A stretch of 15,485 bases of DNA from a virus (Duplodnaviria > Heunggongvirae > Uroviricota > Caudoviricetes), in IMG/VR virus record IMGVR_UViG_2563366804_000003. One strand, written 5' to 3'. This document shows, in pieces, positions 6,001-12,000 of the stretch. Numbering within the stretch: position 1 is the stretch's first letter; each line of letters starts with the position of its first letter. The position numbers are program-made.

Positions 6001-9000
6001 TGTAGCCGCGCGATTTGCCATTCTGGAGGCCGCATTGTTGTTAGGCGAGGTTGTAACAGGCTGGGATGCTCAGACATGCCGTGATGCGATACAGCACAGC
6101 TATAACGCATGGTTGCGCGAGTTCGGCACAGGTAACAAAGAGCATCAGCAGATTATTGAACAAACGGAGGCATTTCTTAATGCCTATGGGCTTAGCCGTT
6201 TTGCACCATTTCCATACAGCCCGGCAGATTTGCCCATCAAAGATTTAGCCGGATACCGTCAGCGTGGAGAACATGACGAAAGCCCAATGATTTTCTACAC
6301 ATTCCCGGCCACATTTGAAAAGGAGATCGCATGTGGTTTCAACGCAAAACAGTTTGCTGAAGTGTTGAAAAAAGCCGGGATGCTAACCCCACCAAACAGC
6401 GGTCGTGGATACCAAAGAAAATCACCACGTATTCAGGGACGACAAATAAACGTTTATGTACTCAATTACCAGCCAGGAGATTATAACTCATCTGAAGAAT
6501 GAGCTTCTTCATGTGCGTAGAAAAGGTGTTGGTTCAGTTGGTTCAGTTGGTTCAATTTGTAAAGAGCATTGTTTTATAAGGATTTTATTCTTTTTATTGA
6601 ACCAACACTGAACCAACAACACGGTATTTTGAACCAACACAATGTGACTGAATTGATGCGCACAACACCTGGCTGGCATCAGAGAGTGTTTTACGAGACT
6701 TTCGTAAAATCCTGTGTACAAGGGCGTGACGTTTTTGAAAGTGAGCACTACGAAATTTTCGTAGTTCAGAAAACAGCCTCTGAGAAGTTGTTATGCCTGT
6801 TCAGCAAACCATCCGCATAGCTGATCGCGAATCAAATTACCAATGGAGCCAGAAGCAAGGGCAGAACTGAAAAGCGCCTGCCGTGAAGAGTAATGCGACA
6901 CCATAAATATAGTTTTTAGAGTCCATAAAAAACCTGTCAAAACCTGACACACAGAACGATGCCACCAGCTACTGAGCGGTGGCATTTTTTTGTGCTATTT
7001 GTTTCATATTTTGCAATTACGATGATGAATATTGCGATTTGTGAAACTATAATAACTGTTGTTTTATACAGTTCTAAGGGGGCGTTATGGCTATTTCAGT
7101 AAAGCCGGTATTGATAAGTGAGAAGCAAATGGAAGCGATAAAGAAAATTCAGGAAGAGCAGCGTAAAAAATCAGGAATTGGAGTAGCGCCAACTCTGCAT
7201 GAAATTGCACGAGGGTTAATAGATAAGGCGCTGGCAGGCTGTATGTGAAAATGGATGGCATCGCATGGAACTAAAATTTATTGATAACCCTGTGCGATTA
7301 CAGGCCTTTCTTAACGAGCCAGGCAATACCGAAAATATTGTTGAGCCGGGGCACACGTACTACATCAAGCCTGATGCGGTATATCTCGGCATCTACGAAG
7401 GATTAGTGCTGGCTGGCGTTCATGAAGTGCGTAACTTCTGGCATAGCGTTGTTGAATGCCATGCGGTGTACGACCCCGGATTCCGTGGTGAATATGCACT
7501 GCAAGGACATCGATTATTCTGCAAATGGCTTCTCGAAAACTCACCATTCCTTAACAGCATCACTATGGTTCCTGACACCACGAAATACGGACGGGCAATT
7601 ATCCGTTTGCTTGGCGCTACCCGTGTTGGTCACCTTGATGATGCTTATATCAGATGTGGTAAACCCGTCGGCGTAACGCTTTATCAGTTAACTCGGCAAC
7701 AATATAAGGAATTCAGCGAATGTTAATTACCCATATAGCTCATAAACATCTCAATCGTGCCGTATACGAAAAAGGCGGTGATGGTGGTGCCTCTAAAGCT
7801 CAGGCGAAGGCCCAGCAGCAGGCAATTGATTTGCAGCGCGAGCAGTGGAATACGGTGATGAATAATCTCAAGCCGTATGCAGAAGTCGGATTGCCTGCTT
7901 TACAACAACTACAAGGACTGATGACTCTGGAAGGGCAGAATAAAGCCGCGAATGATTTCTTTGGTTCTGGTTTATATAAAACACAGGCAGATCAGGCCCG
8001 TTATCAGAACCTTGTCTCAGCAGAAGCTACCGGGGGGCTTGGCTCAACAGCTACCAGTAACCAGTTATCTTCCATTGCGCCCATGCTTTATAACAATTGG
8101 CTTAGTGGGCAAATGCAAAATTATGGAAACCTGCTAAATGTCGGGATGAATGCGGCATCAGGGCAGGCAACGGCAGGGCAAAACTACGCCAATAATACCG
8201 GACAACTCTTGCAGGGGCTTGGCGCTATTCGTGCAGGTCAGGCGCAGCAGCCATCCAGTCTTGCGCGTGGTATTGGTGGGGCAGCATCAGGCGCTTTAGC
8301 GGGTGCGCAACTTGGTTCCGTTGTTCCTGGAATAGGAACTGCGGCCGGCGCTATTGGTGGTGGGCTTATTGGTCTTGTTGGGGGGCTTGGATTCTAATGG
8401 CGACATGGCAACTTGGCGGGCTGCCTAGCATGGCACCGCAAAATGATAATGCTCCTCGTTCTTCCGTTCCTCAGCCTGTGCAGTATCAGCAGCAGCCAAA
8501 CGTAGGTTTAATGGCGCTACAGGGGCTAAGAGGCGTTGCTGAGATTAATCAGCAGGCACGTCAACAACAGCGTAAAGCAGAGTTTCAGAAAGCATATGCC
8601 GGGGCTTTTGAGTCTGGAGACAGAAACAAAATGCGCAGTCTTATTTCTGAGTATCCAGAAGAATTTGAAAGCGTTCAGAAAGGGATGGGCTTTATTGATG
8701 ACGACCAGAGAAATTCTATTGGTCATCTTGCGACTAGTGCTCAAATCGCATCTTCGCTCGGAACTGGGGCATTTGGAAAATTCATAGCAGATAACGAAGA
8801 TGAAATGCGTCGCTTGGGAATTTCTCCTGAGTCTGTTGCCGAAATGCATGTTAATGATCCACAGGGGTTCCAGCGGCTTGCTGGTAGTATGGCACTGTTT
8901 TCTCTCGGTCATGAGAAGTATTTCGATATCAAAGATCAAATGGAAGGTCGGGATATTGAGCGTGGCAAGTTGGCAGAGACAATCCGCAGCAATCAGGCTG

Positions 9001-12000
9001 GCGAAGCACTTCAGGCGAGAGGGCAGGATATTAGCCGAGCAAATGCGTTAACGTCAGCATATGCACCAACAGCAGCAATGCAGAATTACAATCAGTACGC
9101 TCAAATGTTAAAGGCGGATCCAGAGGGGGCGGCGGCATTTGCGGCAGCGGCTGGAATTAATACAAACGCCAAAAAATTAATGAGTGTTAGAGAAAACGAT
9201 GATGGCACTGTCACAAAATACTACACAGACGGAAGTGAAGAGCAGGGAAAACTAAACCAGCCAATATCTGGAGATGGATTTCGTCCAATAGCTTTGCCAA
9301 CAGCCCAAAAGATCATGGAAAAGTCGCCAGAAGGGGCTAAAAAAGCTGCTGGATTTGCATACAGGGTTAGGGATGCTCTTGATTCAATAGATACACTGAA
9401 AGACCAGCTTAGCCCACAGCGAGTGGCGGTCATTAATAATGCTTTGGGTAATGGGACGCTGGCTAACTTAACGCTCAGCCCAACAGAGCAGCAATACGTT
9501 GTTAATGCTAATGACGCAATAATGGCAATACTCCGTCAGGAAACAGGGGCAGCTATCGTACCTGCTGAAATGTCAAAATATTATCAAATGTATTTCCCTC
9601 AGCCTGGCGACTCCACAAAAACCATTGATACCAAGCGCCGGAAGATGGAAAACCAGTTCAATTCGCTGAAAGCTGCTTCTGGTCGAGCTTATGATGCTTT
9701 GCGGGTTATTTCAGCAGTTGACAGAGGAACTTCTTCTTCGTCGCAGACATTGCCGCAATCTGAGCAGGTATCACAGCCAGCAGCCAGCAGTAACTTTTCT
9801 TCACTATGGGGTGATTAATGGCTAAAGCATGGAAAGATGTTATCGCCTCTCCACAGTATCAGGCGTTAGCACCAGAACAAAAAGCGCAGGCTCAGGAGCA
9901 ATACTTCAATGAAGTCGTGGCCCCGCAAGCCGGAGAAAGTGTAGAGCAGGCTAAGCAGGCTTTTTATGCTGCCTATCCACTACCATCAACGAATGAAATA
10001 GACCGATCCCAATCAGCAACTCAAAATATTCAACATACATCATCTGATAATTCTCTTGCGTCAGGGTATGCAAAGTTAGCTACTCAGCAAAGAGAGGGGC
10101 TTGAGCGTTCAGCAGAACAGGGAGCCAGTCTTGGGGCTGCGATGCGGGATGCTATAACAGGCGAAAGCCGAATGACTCCAGAGATGGAGAGACTGCAAAA
10201 TGTCGCCTCTGCCCCAGAATTGAACTCACTAAGCATGGATGCCCTAAAGGCTGGATGGTCTCAACTTTTCGGCTCTGACGCGTCTCAGGAAAAGATTCTC
10301 CAGGGAATGGGGGCGACATTAAGGCAGGATGAGAAGGGGAATACTATCGTTTCTCTGCCATCAGGTGATTATGCCCTAAACAAGCCGGGTTTATCACCGC
10401 AAGACCTGACTTCGTTTCTTGCTAATGCGTTGGCGTTTACACCAGCGGGCAGGGCTGGAACGGTGCTTGGTGCCATAGGAAAATCAGCAGCTACAGATTT
10501 AGCACTACAGGGAGCCACCAGCCTTGCTGGTGGAGAAGATATTGATCCGTTACAAACGGTAATTTCTGCTGGCATTGGTGGTATTGGTAAGGGGCTGGAA
10601 AATACAGCGAGTGCGGTTTCGAGGGCTGTTCGTGGTGATATGTCGCCTGAAGCAAAGGCTGCTGTCGACTTTGCATCGGAAAGAAATCTGCCGTTAATGA
10701 CCAGTGACATGCTGAAAGATAAAACCTTTATGCAGAGTCAGGCTCAGACATTAGGCGAAAGAGTTCCTTTTTTTGGAACCGGTAAGAATCGGCTGAATCA
10801 ACAACAAGCACGAGAAAATTTAGTCAGAACATTTAGCGATGGTCTGGGTGGCATTTCTGATAAACAGCTTTATGAATCTGCGACTAAAGGGCAACAAAAA
10901 TTCATTGAGGCAGCAGGAAAGCGATATAACCGCATAATTGACGCTATGGGGGATACCCCTGTCGATCTCTCAAACACGGTAAAAGCTATCGACAATCAGA
11001 TTGCCGTGTTAAGCCGCCCGGGCAAATCTCAGGATAGAGCCGCGGTAAAAGTCTTGCAGCAATTTAAAGACGATATCACCAGCGGACCAAATGACCTGCG
11101 TCTGGCGAGGGAAAACAGAACCGATCTTCGAAAGCGATTTATGGCGTCATCTGACACTGTTGATAAAGATACGCTCCAGAAAGCCAGCGATATTATCTAC
11201 AAGGCATATACGGCGGATATGAAAAAAGCCGTAGCCAAAAATCTTGGAGCAGACGAAGCCATTAATATGGCAAGGGTTGATCGCTCATGGTCTAAATTCA
11301 ATGACATGATGGGAAGAACGCGCGTTCAAAAGGCAATAGCCAGCGGCAAGGCCACGCCTGAGGATGTAACAAAACTCGTTTTTAGCCAAAGCCCATCAGA
11401 ACGTTCTCAGCTTTACAGGCTTCTGGATGACAATGGTAGGCAAAACGCACGAGCAGCCATAGTTCAGAATGCTGTAGATAAGGCGACTGATCCGTCTGGA
11501 AATATCAGTGTTGAGAAGTTTATTAATGCGTTACACCGGAACAGGAAGCAATCAGCAACTTTCTTTAAAGGCGTACATGGAAAGGAACTGGACGGCGTTA
11601 TTAAATACCTCAACGATACAAGACACGCGGCAAAAGCGAACGTTCAAAACTTAAATGGTCAGCAGCTTTATGGATTGTTAGTTGGTGGTGGCATCATAAA
11701 CGCAGCAGTATTAGCGGGGATGCTAAAAACAGCTGCGTTTGTTGTTCCTGCTGCTGGTGCCGTAGGCGGAGCAGCGAAGGCATACGAAAGCCCTGTTATA
11801 CGAAATGCCTTGTTACGTCTGGCAAATACACCAAAAGGTAGCACAGCATATGACAGAGCGATCAGTACGGTCACACAATCGCTCACCAGAGTCGCACAGG
11901 CATCACAAAAAGAAGCTCAATAACTGGTTAGCCACGGATGGCTAATTTTTGTTCTTTGCTCTCATCCATAGGTAAAGAAGGGAAAGAACAAGACAAAAAA

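What the first reader, a model, noticed from the sequence alone, without database searches (positions are those of the whole stretch)
7265..11923. Podovirus-type ejection-protein operon (gene 14-7-20-16-like) carried inside a P4-like satellite
Four co-directional genes of 153, 225, 473 and 701 aa are chained by overlapping stop/start codons (ATGTTAA, TAATG, TAATG). Sizes and order closely follow the P22 gene 14/7/20/16 block (gp7 about 229 aa, gp20 about 471 aa, gp16 about 609 aa, as recalled). The three larger proteins are Cys-free and Ala/Gln/Gly-rich, and two carry C-terminal glycine-zipper hydrophobic tails, as expected for proteins that are ejected through the tail and form a trans-envelope conduit. 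Finding such a cluster next to a P4-type int/alpA/primase backbone, with no capsid, portal or terminase genes nearby, is unexpected. It could be a satellite supplying its own ejection proteins to hijacked helper virions, a decoy or dominant-negative interference module against P22-like phages, or a captured prophage fragment. The homology is inferred from size, order and composition only.
Basis: partly seen in the sequence, partly recalled or inferred. Interest (0 to 1): 0.78.

Follow-up and report, generated by a model that had tools for sequence, protein, structure and literature searches.

The report
Phage satellite carrying its own ejection proteins
This E. coli island is a phage satellite of a published family (EcCIMP1-like) that parasitises P22-like phages; it carries its own full set of the proteins those phages use to inject DNA, plus short copies of the phages' DNA-packaging signal, and nobody has yet tested what either is for.

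Summary
Four overlapping ORFs (7265-11923) are homologues of P22 gp14, gp7, gp20 and gp16 (Pfam and PHROG E-values 1e-58 to 1e-163). They lie in a ~15.6-kb integrative island between yicC and dinD with no head, portal, terminase or tail genes.

The island is not a true P4. It belongs to the EcCIMP1 family of PICI satellites. EcCIMP1 was shown in 2025 to be mobilised by the P22-like phage Kapi1. Its authors noted "DNA transfer/DUF2824-like" genes but left their role and the packaging mechanism open.

New here:
- The module is a self-contained unit with its own conserved promoter/operator and a small leader ORF.
- The module's promoter and leader ORF are present in 9.2% of complete E. coli genomes, and the module itself recurs in Klebsiella, Citrobacter and Pectobacterium islands.
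- It is under purifying selection, and its gp7 forms an island-only lineage.
- The islands carry pac-site mimics. One 22-mer is identical to the pac position of some P22-type small-terminase genes, and divergent relatives hold arrays of them.
- This copy has a 3.4-kb deletion that truncates its primase.

Best reading: the satellite loads its own ejection proteins into hijacked P22-like virions. That function is inferred, not shown.

The parts
1..1260 (+). Tyrosine integrase of the island (yicC-dinD site)
   Evidence: ORF and PGAP annotation. A 24-nt direct repeat (22/24 identical) flanks the island just outside the window, at L001 14920-14943 and 30549-30572.
1269..1335 (+). int-alpA RNA motif (Rfam RF02996)
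   Evidence: 60.6 bits against a gathering score of 35.8.
2436..2639 (+). AlpA-type HTH regulator, at the position of the master regulator in EcCIMP1
   Evidence: Annotated as AlpA family in sister island L007. The role of AlpA was shown for EcCIMP1 (PMC11773190).
2639..4091 (+). Conserved backbone genes: 143-aa ORF, AntA antirepressor, DUF4222
   Evidence: 97-100% identical across sister islands that differ in integrase and ejection module. Pfam AntA 2.5e-21; PHROG anti-repressor Ant 3e-37.
4085..6502 (+). In-frame fusion of Ash (aa 1-117) to the primase (aa 231-918 of the full protein), created by a 3,365-bp deletion. The Zn-ribbon primase domain and six small genes are lost.
   Evidence: Breakpoint at window 4436-4439 against the full-length island L021. 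Toprim and DUF927 are retained. Sister primases carry Zn_Ribbon_Prim.
4233..4339 (-). 107-bp segment derived from a P22-type small-terminase gene. It ends in a pac-like 22-mer (4318-4339, GAAGGTTTTTGTGGAGTCACTA when read on the minus strand).
   Evidence: 88% identical to P22 positions 4-110, which include the annotated pac site at 4-25. It matches terS of 117 phages with constant boundaries. It is 22/22 identical to the pac position in the phage terS of L026, L033 and L035. It is present in all sister islands.
4402..4426 (+). 25-bp tag identical to an internal site of CUS-3-type small-terminase genes
   Evidence: Exact match to L006 2691-2715. The motif is found at a fixed position in 102 CUS-3-type terS genes and in 23 islands.
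6527..6640 (.). Iteron cluster, the probable replication origin: GTTGGTTCA three times direct and TGAACCAAC three times inverted, flanking an AT-rich spacer
   Evidence: Read directly from the sequence. It lies immediately downstream of the primase, as in PICIs.
6911..6932 (+). Second copy of the CUS-3-type motif (20/22)
6962..6992 (+). Intrinsic terminator-like hairpin followed by a T-run, separating the replication region from the ejection module
   Evidence: Conserved in sister islands.
7001..7058 (+). Conserved promoter/operator of the module: a perfect -10 TATAAT (7049-7054) with no properly spaced -35, and a 16-bp inverted repeat (7002-7017 and 7030-7045)
   Evidence: It is the only block upstream of the small ORF that is conserved in the divergent island L031.
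7087..7248 (+). 53-aa leader ORF specific to islands, possibly a ribbon-helix-helix regulator
   Evidence: Same protein accession in EcCIMP1. 75-89% identical in divergent islands. dN/dS 0.13-0.15. The AF2 model shows an extended N-terminus plus two helices at pLDDT 77.6, with no significant PDB match.
7265..7726 (+). gp14 homologue (DUF2824)
   Evidence: Pfam 1.5e-61; PHROG 651 1e-66. 23% identical to P22 gp14 and up to 86% to other P22-like phages.
7720..8397 (+). gp7 homologue (ejection protein), island-specific lineage
   Evidence: Pfam P22_gp7 6.6e-73. 56% identical to P22 gp7. Island copies are >=71% identical, all phage copies <=66%.
8397..9818 (+). gp20 homologue (ejection protein). 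The N-domain is mosaic with phages; the C-domain is closest to island copies.
   Evidence: Pfam Inj_translocase 4.5e-58; PHROG 917 6.7e-112 over the full length. Mosaic map. The best full-length phage match is APSE at 53%.
9818..11923 (+). gp16 homologue (ejection protein), type 'a'
   Evidence: PHROG 770 2.4e-163 covering residues 19-700. BLASTP to Sf6 gp13 1e-96 and to P22 gp16 4e-53. 95% identical to the gp16 of the complete P22-like prophage L006. dN/dS 0.12-0.15.
11926..11947 (+). Terminator-like hairpin at the end of the module
11942..12361 (-). 139-aa protein with about four hydrophobic segments, convergent with gp16 at the position that sieA occupies in P22
   Evidence: Position compared with the P22 map. 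83% identical to the ORF after gp16 in prophage L006. No similarity to P22 SieA and no SieA motif. Hydropathy.
12441..12462 (+). Second pac-like 22-mer (GAAGATTTTTCTGATATCACTG), in the non-coding region after the module
   Evidence: 21.2 bits with a motif model built from phage sequences only. Controls: one hit per P22-type phage, none in other phages or in chromosome. Same relative position as the pac-like arrays of divergent islands.
13238..14107 (+). Variable cargo: CapP-like ImmA/IrrE metallopeptidase plus a 125-aa membrane protein
   Evidence: Pfam Peptidase_M78 9.6e-20. PADLOC capP 4.9e-25. The same slot holds AbiD in sister island L007.
14836..15123 (+). PerC-family regulator at the island's right end
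   Evidence: PGAP annotation. 54% identical to the EcCIMP1-type PerC-like gene, which represses LEE.

Best explanation
The window is almost the whole of an EcCIMP1-like phage-inducible chromosomal island, a satellite of P22-like podophages.

Shown for the sister element EcCIMP1: a P22-like helper switches on AlpA, the island excises and circularises, and it is transferred in helper particles.

Inferred here, in order:
1. The island replicates from the iteron origin next to its primase.
2. Its concatemers are recognised by the helper's small terminase through pac-site mimics. These are a 22-mer copied from P22-type terS genes, further pac-like 22-mers after the ejection module, and a tag from CUS-3-type terS.
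3. They are packaged by the headful, roughly 2-3 island copies per P22-sized head.
4. The operon at 7087-11923 has its own regulated promoter and a small leader ORF. It makes island-encoded gp14, gp7, gp20 and gp16.
5. The most likely role of these proteins is to be loaded into the helper-built procapsids, with gp14 acting as in P22, so that particles carrying the island have a DNA-delivery conduit specified by the satellite rather than by the helper.
6. The likely benefit is independence from the helper's ejection-protein alleles, which determine sensitivity to entry blocks such as SieA.

This particular copy has lost the N-terminal 230 residues of its primase and is probably impaired for replication.
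For: Homology of all four proteins.

Island boundaries and absence of structural genes.

Orthology to EcCIMP1, including a leader ORF with the same protein accession. Helper dependence, specific transfer by Kapi1 and the AlpA role are experimental results for EcCIMP1 (PMC11773190).

The module is functional rather than decaying:
- dN/dS is 0.12-0.29.
- It has its own conserved promoter/operator.
- gp20 and gp16 are both intact in 11 of 12 islands inspected.
- The module's island-specific promoter and leader ORF are present in 499 of 5426 complete E. coli genomes.
- The same architecture occurs in Klebsiella, Citrobacter-type and Pectobacterium islands.
- Island gp7 forms a lineage (>=71% identity) separate from all phage gp7 (<=66%).
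- gp16 types are shared with real prophages: 95% to L006, and type 'd' 92% to phage L175.
- The gp20/gp16 junction segment stays 97% nt-identical to Sf6 while the rest diverges to 30-45% aa. This suggests retained interaction with conserved phage partners.

pac mimicry:
- Homology to terS starts exactly at the pac 22-mer.
- The 22-mer is 22/22 identical to the pac position of some phage terS genes.
- Only the 22-mer is retained in divergent islands.
- With a phage-only motif model there are 2-7 hits per island, 1 per P22-type phage, and 0 in other phages and chromosome.

P22 particles lacking gp7, gp20 or gp16 assemble but cannot deliver DNA, and SieA escape maps to gp20 and gp16 (PMC10883804).
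Against: - No experiment shows that island-encoded ejection proteins enter virions.
- Kapi1, the one proven helper, has neither pac tag within 4 mismatches, so the pac-mimic model is not confirmed by the only experimental pair. It is only compatible with the very low transfer frequency reported.
- In vitro binding of P22 TerS to pac DNA has never been demonstrated (PMC9611059).
- Some islands lack gp14 and gp7 or gp14 alone, so a full set is not required.
- A cell making both helper and island ejection proteins would yield mixed particles, which weakens a simple 'replacement' benefit.
- EcCIMP1 has a superinfection-immunity phenotype that the module could explain instead.
- Part of the sequence divergence used for dN/dS may have arisen while the alleles were in phages.
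Confidence: 0.5

Rival explanations
1. The module, alone or with the convergent membrane protein, is an entry-exclusion device. Ejection-protein homologues made inside the island-bearing cell interfere with assembly of the incoming phage's trans-envelope conduit, protecting the host and resident helper from superinfection by P22-like phages.
For: EcCIMP1 adds superinfection immunity against Kapi1 in lysogens, and the gene responsible is unknown (PMC11773190). The module has its own promoter, separate from the AlpA operon by a terminator. A small multi-TM protein sits where sieA sits in P22 and travels with gp16 type 'a' in both islands and a prophage. SieA acts on the gp20/gp16 conduit.
Against: There is no precedent for ejection proteins acting as exclusion factors. 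The proteins have no signal peptides and keep phage-like N-termini. The membrane ORF has no SieA similarity or motif and is absent from EcCIMP1 itself, which has a different downstream gene. Yet EcCIMP1 shows the immunity phenotype. The presence of gp14, an assembly factor that the Sf6 record calls a putative virion stabilization protein, fits virion loading better.
Confidence: 0.2
2. The proteins take part in redirecting packaging or capsid assembly toward the island, as the EcCIMP1 authors suggested, or they poison helper particles (dominant-negative interference).
For: They occupy the position downstream of the primase where other PICIs keep packaging or interference genes. The EcCIMP1 authors named EcCIMP1_017-019 as packaging candidates. 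PHROG labels gp14 'head morphogenesis'.
Against: EcCIMP1 does not change Kapi1 titre. P22 mutants lacking gp7, gp20 or gp16 still make DNA-filled particles and fail only at delivery (PMC10883804), so these families have no known packaging role. No TerS-, Rpp-, Sid- or CpmB-like match was found in the island ORFs scanned. pac mimics offer a protein-free route to packaging.
Confidence: 0.1
3. The block is a functionally inert fragment of a P22-like prophage, picked up by recombination and not yet decayed.
For: gp16 and the downstream membrane ORF are 83-95% identical to those of a complete prophage. The module is mosaic with phage alleles. Some copies are disrupted by IS elements or deletions. 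This island copy is itself a deletion derivative.
Against: Purifying selection acts on the genes. The leader ORF and promoter are island-specific and conserved across genera. The gp7 lineage is found only in islands. The same architecture occurs with different integrases, attachment sites and hosts. The module's promoter and leader ORF are in 9.2% of E. coli genomes.
Confidence: 0.05

Closest known systems
EcCIMP1, PICI of E. coli MP1 (Pick, Stadel & Raivio, ISME J 2025; PMC11773190)
   Same: Same backbone: AlpA HTH, 143-aa ORF, AntA, DUF4222, Ash, Toprim/DUF927 primase and PerC. Same leader-ORF protein accession. Its gp14 and gp7 homologues carry different but adjacent accessions, and the EcCIMP1-type island L019 has gp14 and gp7 100% identical to the window's. 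Same two terS-derived tags. EcCIMP1 is experimentally a satellite of a P22-like phage.
   Different: Different integrase and site (yicC-dinD rather than tRNA-Thr), an AlpA only 33% identical, and a different gp20 C-half. The gp16 is type 'a' (701 aa) rather than the 906-aa transglycosylase type. The window's island has a convergent membrane ORF, different cargo, and a 3.4-kb deletion truncating the primase. The paper did not identify the genes as the gp14/7/20/16 ejection set, stated that no phage structural genes were present, and left packaging unexplained.
Ejection (E) proteins gp7, gp20, gp16 and assembly factor gp14 of P22, and gp10-13 of Sf6
   Same: Same families, same gene order, overlapping junctions, Cys-free Gly/Ala/Gln-rich composition, and a conserved gp20-C/gp16-N junction.
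   Different: Encoded by a satellite with no head or tail genes. Preceded by an island-specific promoter and small ORF instead of needle gene 26. gp7 and the gp20 C-domain are island-specific alleles.
pac-type SaPIs and cos-type E. coli PICIs (EcCICFT073 Rpp)
   Same: All are satellites that divert the helper's terminase to their own DNA.
   Different: Those elements encode a protein that does this: their own TerS, or Rpp, which re-targets phage TerS. No such protein was found here. Instead the islands carry DNA copies of the helper's pac sequence, in arrays of variants in some lineages.
Capsid-forming PICIs (cf-PICIs)
   Same: Satellites that encode virion proteins of their own instead of relying wholly on the helper.
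   Different: cf-PICIs encode capsid, portal and packaging proteins and take only tails. This family would take capsid, packaging motor and tail, and supply only the internal DNA-delivery proteins.
Satellite P4
   Same: AlpA-type regulator, Ash (epsilon-like) gene, a large primase, and the int-alpA RNA motif.
   Different: No Sid, Psu or Delta match. The primase is DUF927-type here. The helper group is P22-like podophages rather than P2-like myophages.
P22 SieA superinfection exclusion protein
   Same: The 139-aa ORF is a small multi-TM protein placed immediately after gene 16 and convergent with it, as sieA is.
   Different: No sequence similarity and no FxRYPxEAxxFNK motif, and it is shorter than all three SieA types.

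Membership tests
P22-type ejection-protein module (gp14, gp7, gp20, gp16) | gp14: member of DUF2824 (PF11039) above the gathering score | tested here: met
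   207.2 bits against a cut-off of 25, covering 1-148 of 151 profile positions.
P22-type ejection-protein module (gp14, gp7, gp20, gp16) | gp7: member of P22_gp7 (PF25688) | tested here: met
   245.8 bits against a cut-off of 28. 56% identical to P22 gp7.
P22-type ejection-protein module (gp14, gp7, gp20, gp16) | gp20: Inj_translocase N-domain (PF16928) | tested here: met
   197 bits against a cut-off of 29.7. Full-length match to PHROG 917.
P22-type ejection-protein module (gp14, gp7, gp20, gp16) | gp16: homology to P22 gp16 / Sf6 gp13 | tested here: met
   PHROG 770 2.4e-163 over the full length. BLASTP 4e-53 to P22 gp16 and 1e-96 to Sf6 gp13. No hit in the Pfam copy used. PF26808 Phage_P22_gp16 is on record for the equivalent genes of sister islands.
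P22-type ejection-protein module (gp14, gp7, gp20, gp16) | Gene order 14-7-20-16 in one operon | tested here: met
P22-type ejection-protein module (gp14, gp7, gp20, gp16) | Encoded in a phage late operon, downstream of the head-completion and needle genes | tested here: not met
   The module is preceded by the primase, origin, terminator, its own promoter and a 53-aa ORF. No structural genes lie within 15 kb.
P22-type ejection-protein module (gp14, gp7, gp20, gp16) | Proteins are packaged in virions and released on infection | not testable with these tools
   Needs proteomics of particles.
PICI, EcCIMP1-like | Integrase, AlpA regulator, primase and origin in a 10-20 kb island flanked by att repeats | tested here: met
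   24-nt direct repeat with 15,629-bp spacing; iterons.
PICI, EcCIMP1-like | Orthology of backbone genes to EcCIMP1 | tested here: met
   The leader ORF and DUF4222 protein have the same accessions as in EcCIMP1. The 143-aa ORF and AntA are 97-99% identical in EcCIMP1-type islands.
PICI, EcCIMP1-like | Helper-dependent excision and specific transfer | not testable with these tools
   Shown for EcCIMP1 with Kapi1 (PMC11773190), not for this island.
PICI, EcCIMP1-like | Intact replication module | tested here: not met
   A 3,365-bp deletion removes primase residues 1-230, including the Zn-ribbon domain. Only 2 of the listed genomes share this form.
PICI, EcCIMP1-like | No phage structural genes (usual PICI criterion) | tested here: not met
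   gp7, gp20 and gp16 are virion proteins in P22-like phages. The whole family departs from the criterion in this one respect.
P4-like satellite | Sid, Delta and Psu capsid-size/late module | tested here: not met
   No such match in Pfam or PHROG scans of the larger island ORFs. The 147-aa and 125-aa ORFs were scanned only against NCBIfam and PADLOC.
P4-like satellite | int, AlpA, epsilon/Ash and a large primase | tested here: met
   The Ash gene is truncated in this copy.
SieA (for the 139-aa ORF) | Sequence similarity to SieA types A-C, including the FxRYPxEAxxFNK motif | tested here: not met
   BLASTP E = 0.95 to P22 SieA. The motif is absent from the sequence. No PHROG hit.
SieA (for the 139-aa ORF) | Small multi-TM protein encoded just after gene 16 | tested here: met
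   Position and about four hydrophobic segments.
P22 pac site (for the 22-mers) | Sequence match to the 22-bp asymmetric pac of P22-type terS genes | tested here: met
   16/22 to P22 itself. 22/22 to the same position in phage terS of L026, L033 and L035, and 21/22 in L036. Phage-only motif model with specificity controls.
P22 pac site (for the 22-mers) | Directs initiation of headful packaging by P22-type terminase | not testable with these tools
   Needs a transduction or packaging assay. Kapi1, the known helper of EcCIMP1, has a different TerS and no matching tag.

The most novel reading that the evidence does not exclude
EcCIMP1-like satellites are specialised parasites of the whole P22-like phage group. 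They take capsid, motor and tail from the helper but bring two things of their own. First, arrays of pac-site decoys matching several small-terminase specificities (P22-type variants, CUS-3-type, Kapi1-type), which let one island be packaged by many helpers. Second, a private set of ejection proteins, minimally gp20 plus gp16, the two proteins in which SieA-escape mutations arise. These would let satellite-bearing particles inject into cells that exclude ordinary P22-like virions, including lysogens of potential helpers. This would be the first satellite known to re-equip the DNA-delivery step.
Probability: 0.22. Interest if true: 0.85.

Novelty: new member of a known kind. Interest (0 to 1): 0.6.

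Why it matters
Known phage satellites hijack capsid size, packaging specificity or tails. None has been shown to supply the internal proteins that carry DNA across the recipient's envelope.

The module's promoter and leader ORF are in about one in eleven complete E. coli genomes, and the module recurs in other Enterobacterales. The only experimental paper on the family left both the role of these genes and the packaging mechanism open.

The present analysis turns both into direct tests:
- Delete the operon or the pac-like 22-mers and measure transfer by helpers with matched and unmatched terminases.
- Measure transfer into recipients with and without SieA-type exclusion.

It also predicts that Kapi1 is a poor helper, and that prophages with P22-type or CUS-3-type small terminases are the efficient ones. 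Because these islands carry variable defence genes and a PerC-like virulence regulator, knowing how they spread has practical relevance.

Tried and rejected
2. NCBIfam gave no hit for any of the four proteins or the unknown ORFs.
3. The 139-aa ORF was tested as a SieA homologue against P22 SieA and against the equivalent ORF of phage 720R6. There was no similarity.
4. The generic sigma-70 promoter scan found no more sites than in shuffles and missed the conserved -10 block. Phylogenetic footprinting worked instead.
5. I looked for a late-promoter (PR'/qut) mimic or any other DNA shared with P22-like phages upstream of the module. None was found.
6. I tested whether Kapi1, the proven helper of EcCIMP1, carries either pac-like tag. 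It does not. The pac-mimic idea is therefore not confirmed by that pair and is kept only as an inference.
7. The AlphaFold model of the 53-aa ORF gave a strand-helix-helix-like topology but no significant PDB match.
8. Five literature searches for satellites with ejection or injection proteins found nothing, until a search pairing 'DNA transfer protein' with 'PICI' found EcCIMP1. Casjens & Grose 2016 is not held.
9. I could not test co-occurrence of islands with P22-like prophages genome by genome, because the search tool lists at most 60 rows.
10. A 15-bp core of the pac-like motif inside gp20 (about window 9605-9626) may be chance and was not interpreted.

Full report
**1. Observation.** The window contains four co-directional ORFs at 7265-7726 (153 aa), 7720-8397 (225 aa), 8397-9818 (473 aa) and 9818-11923 (701 aa). 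Their junctions are ATGTTAA, TAATG and TAATG. The three larger products contain no cysteine, and Ala+Gln+Gly makes up 29-42% of them. The 225-aa protein ends in a Gly-rich hydrophobic segment, and the 701-aa protein has one at residues 617-649.

**2. Homology.**
- The 153-aa protein matches DUF2824, the P22 gp14 family, at 1.5e-61.
- The 225-aa protein matches P22_gp7 at 6.6e-73.
- The 473-aa protein matches the Inj_translocase domain of gp20 at 4.5e-58 (all three).
- The 701-aa protein has no hit in the Pfam copy used. It matches PHROG 770 'DNA transfer protein' end to end at 2.4e-163. It aligns to Sf6 gp13 (1e-96) and to P22 gp16 (4e-53).
- Identities to P22 itself are modest: gp14 23%, gp7 56%, gp20 38% over the N-half, gp16 30%.
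- No sequenced phage carries a close copy of the block. The best matches are 68% for gp16 (phages N7 and HZ41) and 53% for full-length gp20 (the APSE phages).

So the operon is a genuine gp14-7-20-16 module of a divergent, mosaic type.

**3. Context.** The window is 100% identical to E. coli MB06101. It lies between the core genes yicC and dinD, bracketed by a 24-nt direct repeat (22/24 identical) with 15,629-bp spacing. There are no head, portal, terminase, tail or lysis genes in it or near it. The backbone, in order:
- integrase, then an int-alpA RNA motif;
- an AlpA-type HTH, a 143-aa ORF, an AntA antirepressor and DUF4222;
- a Toprim/DUF927 primase followed by iterons;
- a variable cargo slot, holding a CapP-like ImmA/IrrE peptidase here and AbiD in a sister island;
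- a PerC-family gene.

No Sid, Psu or Delta match was found, so the element is not a P4 in the strict sense.

**4. The family is published.** A search pairing 'DNA transfer protein' with 'PICI' found Pick, Stadel & Raivio, ISME J 2025 (PMC11773190). Their EcCIMP1 is a 19,963-bp island at tRNA-Thr. It excises and circularises only when the P22-like phage Kapi1 is present, and it needs AlpA and its integrase. Kapi1 transfers it specifically but at very low frequency. It does not lower Kapi1 titre, and it adds superinfection immunity in lysogens. The authors state that no phage-like structural genes were identified. They note that EcCIMP1_017-019 resemble 'DNA transfer proteins and DUF2824' and may be involved in packaging, and they say the packaging mechanism is unknown.

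I fetched the EcCIMP1 locus. Its leader ORF and DUF4222 protein have the same accessions as the window's. Its gp14 and gp7 homologues carry different but adjacent accessions, and the EcCIMP1-type island L019 has gp14 and gp7 100% identical to the window's. The backbone is the same. The window's island is therefore an EcCIMP1-like PICI. It differs in integrase and site, in AlpA (33% identity), in the gp20 C-half, in gp16 type and in cargo.

**5. This copy is a deletion derivative.** Compared with full-length sister islands such as strain cq9 (18.8 kb), the window lacks 3,365 bp. The deletion fuses Ash residues 1-117 in frame to primase residue 231 and removes six small genes and the primase N-terminus. 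Sister primases have a Zn-ribbon primase domain there, while the window's ORF keeps only Toprim and DUF927. The ejection module is 100% identical to that of cq9.

**6. The module is a conserved, self-contained part of the family.**
- Across islands with different integrases, sites and primase types, the order is always primase, origin, terminator, small ORF, optional gp14, optional gp7, gp20, gp16.
- Footprinting against a divergent island (L031) leaves one conserved upstream block. It has a perfect -10 TATAAT with no properly spaced -35, overlapped by a 16-bp inverted repeat. This looks like a regulated promoter.
- The 53-aa leader ORF is found only in islands. It is 75-89% conserved and models as an extended segment plus two helices. 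No structural match confirms a ribbon-helix-helix fold.
- This promoter-plus-ORF unit occurs in 499 of 5426 complete E. coli genomes, with up to three copies.
- dN/dS is 0.12-0.15 for gp16, 0.29 for gp20 and 0.13-0.15 for the leader ORF. Part of that divergence may have arisen while the alleles were in phages.
- gp20 and gp16 are both intact in 11 of the 12 islands I inspected. The exception is L018, where gp20 is truncated.

**7. Relationship to phage alleles.** The module is finely mosaic.
- gp16 types are shared with real prophages. The window's type is 95% identical to that of a complete P22-like prophage at argW in an APEC strain, and so is the convergent 139-aa membrane ORF (83%). Another island type is 92% identical to a phage copy.
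- The gp20-C/gp16-N junction is 97% nt-identical to Sf6, while the flanking sequence has diverged to 30-45% aa.
- gp7 is different. In 80 IMG/VR loci plus reference phages, island gp7s are 83-100% identical to the window's, and all 82 phage or prophage gp7s are 66% or less.
- A search of 5.8 billion proteins shows a graded series. Every context sampled at 72-85% is an island of the same architecture: Klebsiella, Pectobacterium polonicum, a copy listed as Citrobacter freundii, and E. coli. The contexts at 62-64% are complete P22-like phages.

The association is therefore old, vertically maintained and spread across Enterobacterales. It is not a recent capture.

**8. pac-site mimicry.**
- A 107-bp stretch inside the Ash 5' region (window 4233-4339) is 88% identical to P22 positions 4-110. 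This is the part of gene 3 that begins with the annotated 22-bp pac site. The literature on that site is PMC9611059 and PMC8022706.
- The segment matches the terS gene of 117 phages with the same boundaries every time, and it is present in all sister islands.
- The island 22-mer (GAAGGTTTTTGTGGAGTCACTA) differs from P22's at six positions. It is 22/22 identical to the same position in the terS of three phage contigs and 21/22 in a fourth. Similarity outside the 107 bp is random.
- In a divergent island lineage only the 22-mer plus 8 bp is retained, at a different place downstream of the ejection module.
- A motif model built only from phage terS sequences hits P22-type phages once, at their pac. 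It hits other phages and about 59 kb of chromosome not at all. It hits islands 2-7 times. In divergent islands the hits cluster within about 500 bp just after the module, in one orientation. The window has a second copy there (12441-12462).
- A separate 25-bp tag (window 4402-4426, repeated at 6911-6932) is identical to a fixed internal site of CUS-3-type terS genes: 102 phage contexts and 23 islands.
- Two islands also carry 18-19 bp identical to Kapi1's terS.
- Full-length P22-type terS genes occur in 258 of 5426 E. coli genomes.

**9. A check that did not confirm.** Kapi1 itself has neither tag within four mismatches, although EcCIMP1 has both. So the one experimentally proven helper is not pac-matched. 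This is compatible with the very low transfer frequency and with the authors' remark that only 2 of 21 EcCIMP1 strains carry a Kapi1-like prophage. It does not confirm the model, and in vitro TerS-pac binding has never been shown for P22.

**10. Mechanism.**
- Shown for the family: helper-dependent induction through AlpA, excision, and specific transfer.
- Shown here by sequence: the identity of the four proteins, their conservation and selection, their own promoter, and the terS-derived tags.
- Inferred: the tags recruit helper terminase, and the island-encoded gp14, gp7, gp20 and gp16 are assembled into helper procapsids and serve DNA delivery from satellite-bearing particles.

The inference about the proteins rests on three points. 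These families have no known role other than delivery: P22 particles lacking them assemble but cannot inject (PMC10883804). The conserved junction segments are retained. gp14 is present. The minimal module, gp20 plus gp16, coincides with the two proteins in which SieA-escape mutations arise. That suggests, but does not show, that the benefit is escape from entry exclusion in recipient lysogens.

**11. Rivals.**
- An exclusion role for the module is plausible because EcCIMP1 confers immunity by an unmapped gene. However, the membrane ORF is not a SieA and is absent from EcCIMP1.
- A packaging or interference role is disfavoured by the unchanged helper titre and by the known phenotype of E-protein mutants.
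- An inert remnant is disfavoured by everything in sections 6 and 7.

**12. Verdict.** The observation and the homology call are correct. The element is a new member of a known, recently described satellite family, and the presence of these genes in the family is already on record, which limits novelty. What the genes are (a complete ejection-protein operon), how conserved and widespread they are, and the pac-mimic arrays are, as far as the searchable literature shows, not described. They give clear experiments. Interest is moderate to high.

Noticed in passing
window 4085-6502 (breakpoint 4436-4439): The annotated 805-aa 'TOPRIM and DUF927' protein is an in-frame fusion of Ash residues 1-117 to primase residues 231-918. 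It was created by a 3,365-bp deletion relative to full-length sister islands, and the Zn-ribbon primase domain is lost. This island copy is probably replication-impaired.
   Followed up: yes
window 1269-1335: Rfam int-alpA RNA motif (RF02996, 60.6 bits) between the integrase and the next gene. Its function is unknown.
   Followed up: no
window 14720-14806 and 6521-6607: An inverted, 86.5%-identical copy of the iteron/origin region lies just upstream of perC. This suggests a second binding region for the same initiator or regulator.
   Followed up: no
window 12479-12501, 12765-12787, 15442-15464: A repeat family ATTTCGTGACCAGTACGCGCGCG (83-100% identity). Two of its three copies lie about 17-20 bp downstream of a pac-like 22-mer, at 12441-12462 and at the imperfect copy at about 15407-15429. 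A related GC-rich motif flanks the pac-like arrays of island L031. It may be part of a composite packaging signal.
   Followed up: partly
window 13238-14107; L007 18082-19044: The slot between the ejection module and perC holds different defence-type cargo in sister islands. Here it holds a CapP-like ImmA/IrrE peptidase plus a 125-aa membrane protein; in L007 it holds AbiD (2.7e-57). It behaves like a defence hotspot.
   Followed up: partly
window 1356-2321: A 321-aa ORF next to the integrase lies in a low-GC stretch (35% at 1501-2000) and has no significant family match beyond a weak PADLOC PDC-S31 hit at E = 0.002. It is replaced by other genes in sister islands, so it may be a second cargo slot.
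   Followed up: no
L238 15709-15727 and L239 15687-15704: Divergent islands carry 18-19 bp exactly identical to nt 172-190 of the Kapi1 small-terminase gene, next to their arrays of P22-type pac-like 22-mers. This may be a third terminase specificity being mimicked.
   Followed up: partly
window 9818-11923 (L001 24818-26633): RefSeq/PGAP marks the gp16 homologue as a pseudogene 'missing C-terminus' in many genomes, although the 701-aa ORF is intact. The call probably comes from comparison with a reference of another gp16 type.
   Followed up: yes
window 14836-15123: The PerC-family gene is only 54% identical to the EcCIMP1-type gene that represses LEE in Citrobacter rodentium. Whether this allele activates, represses or does nothing is unknown.
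   Followed up: no
L236 (Klebsiella), L238, L239: Some relatives insert SSB, ProQ-domain and other genes between the primase and the ejection module. The Klebsiella island has gp7, gp20 and gp16 but no gp14, so the module's composition varies by lineage.
   Followed up: partly
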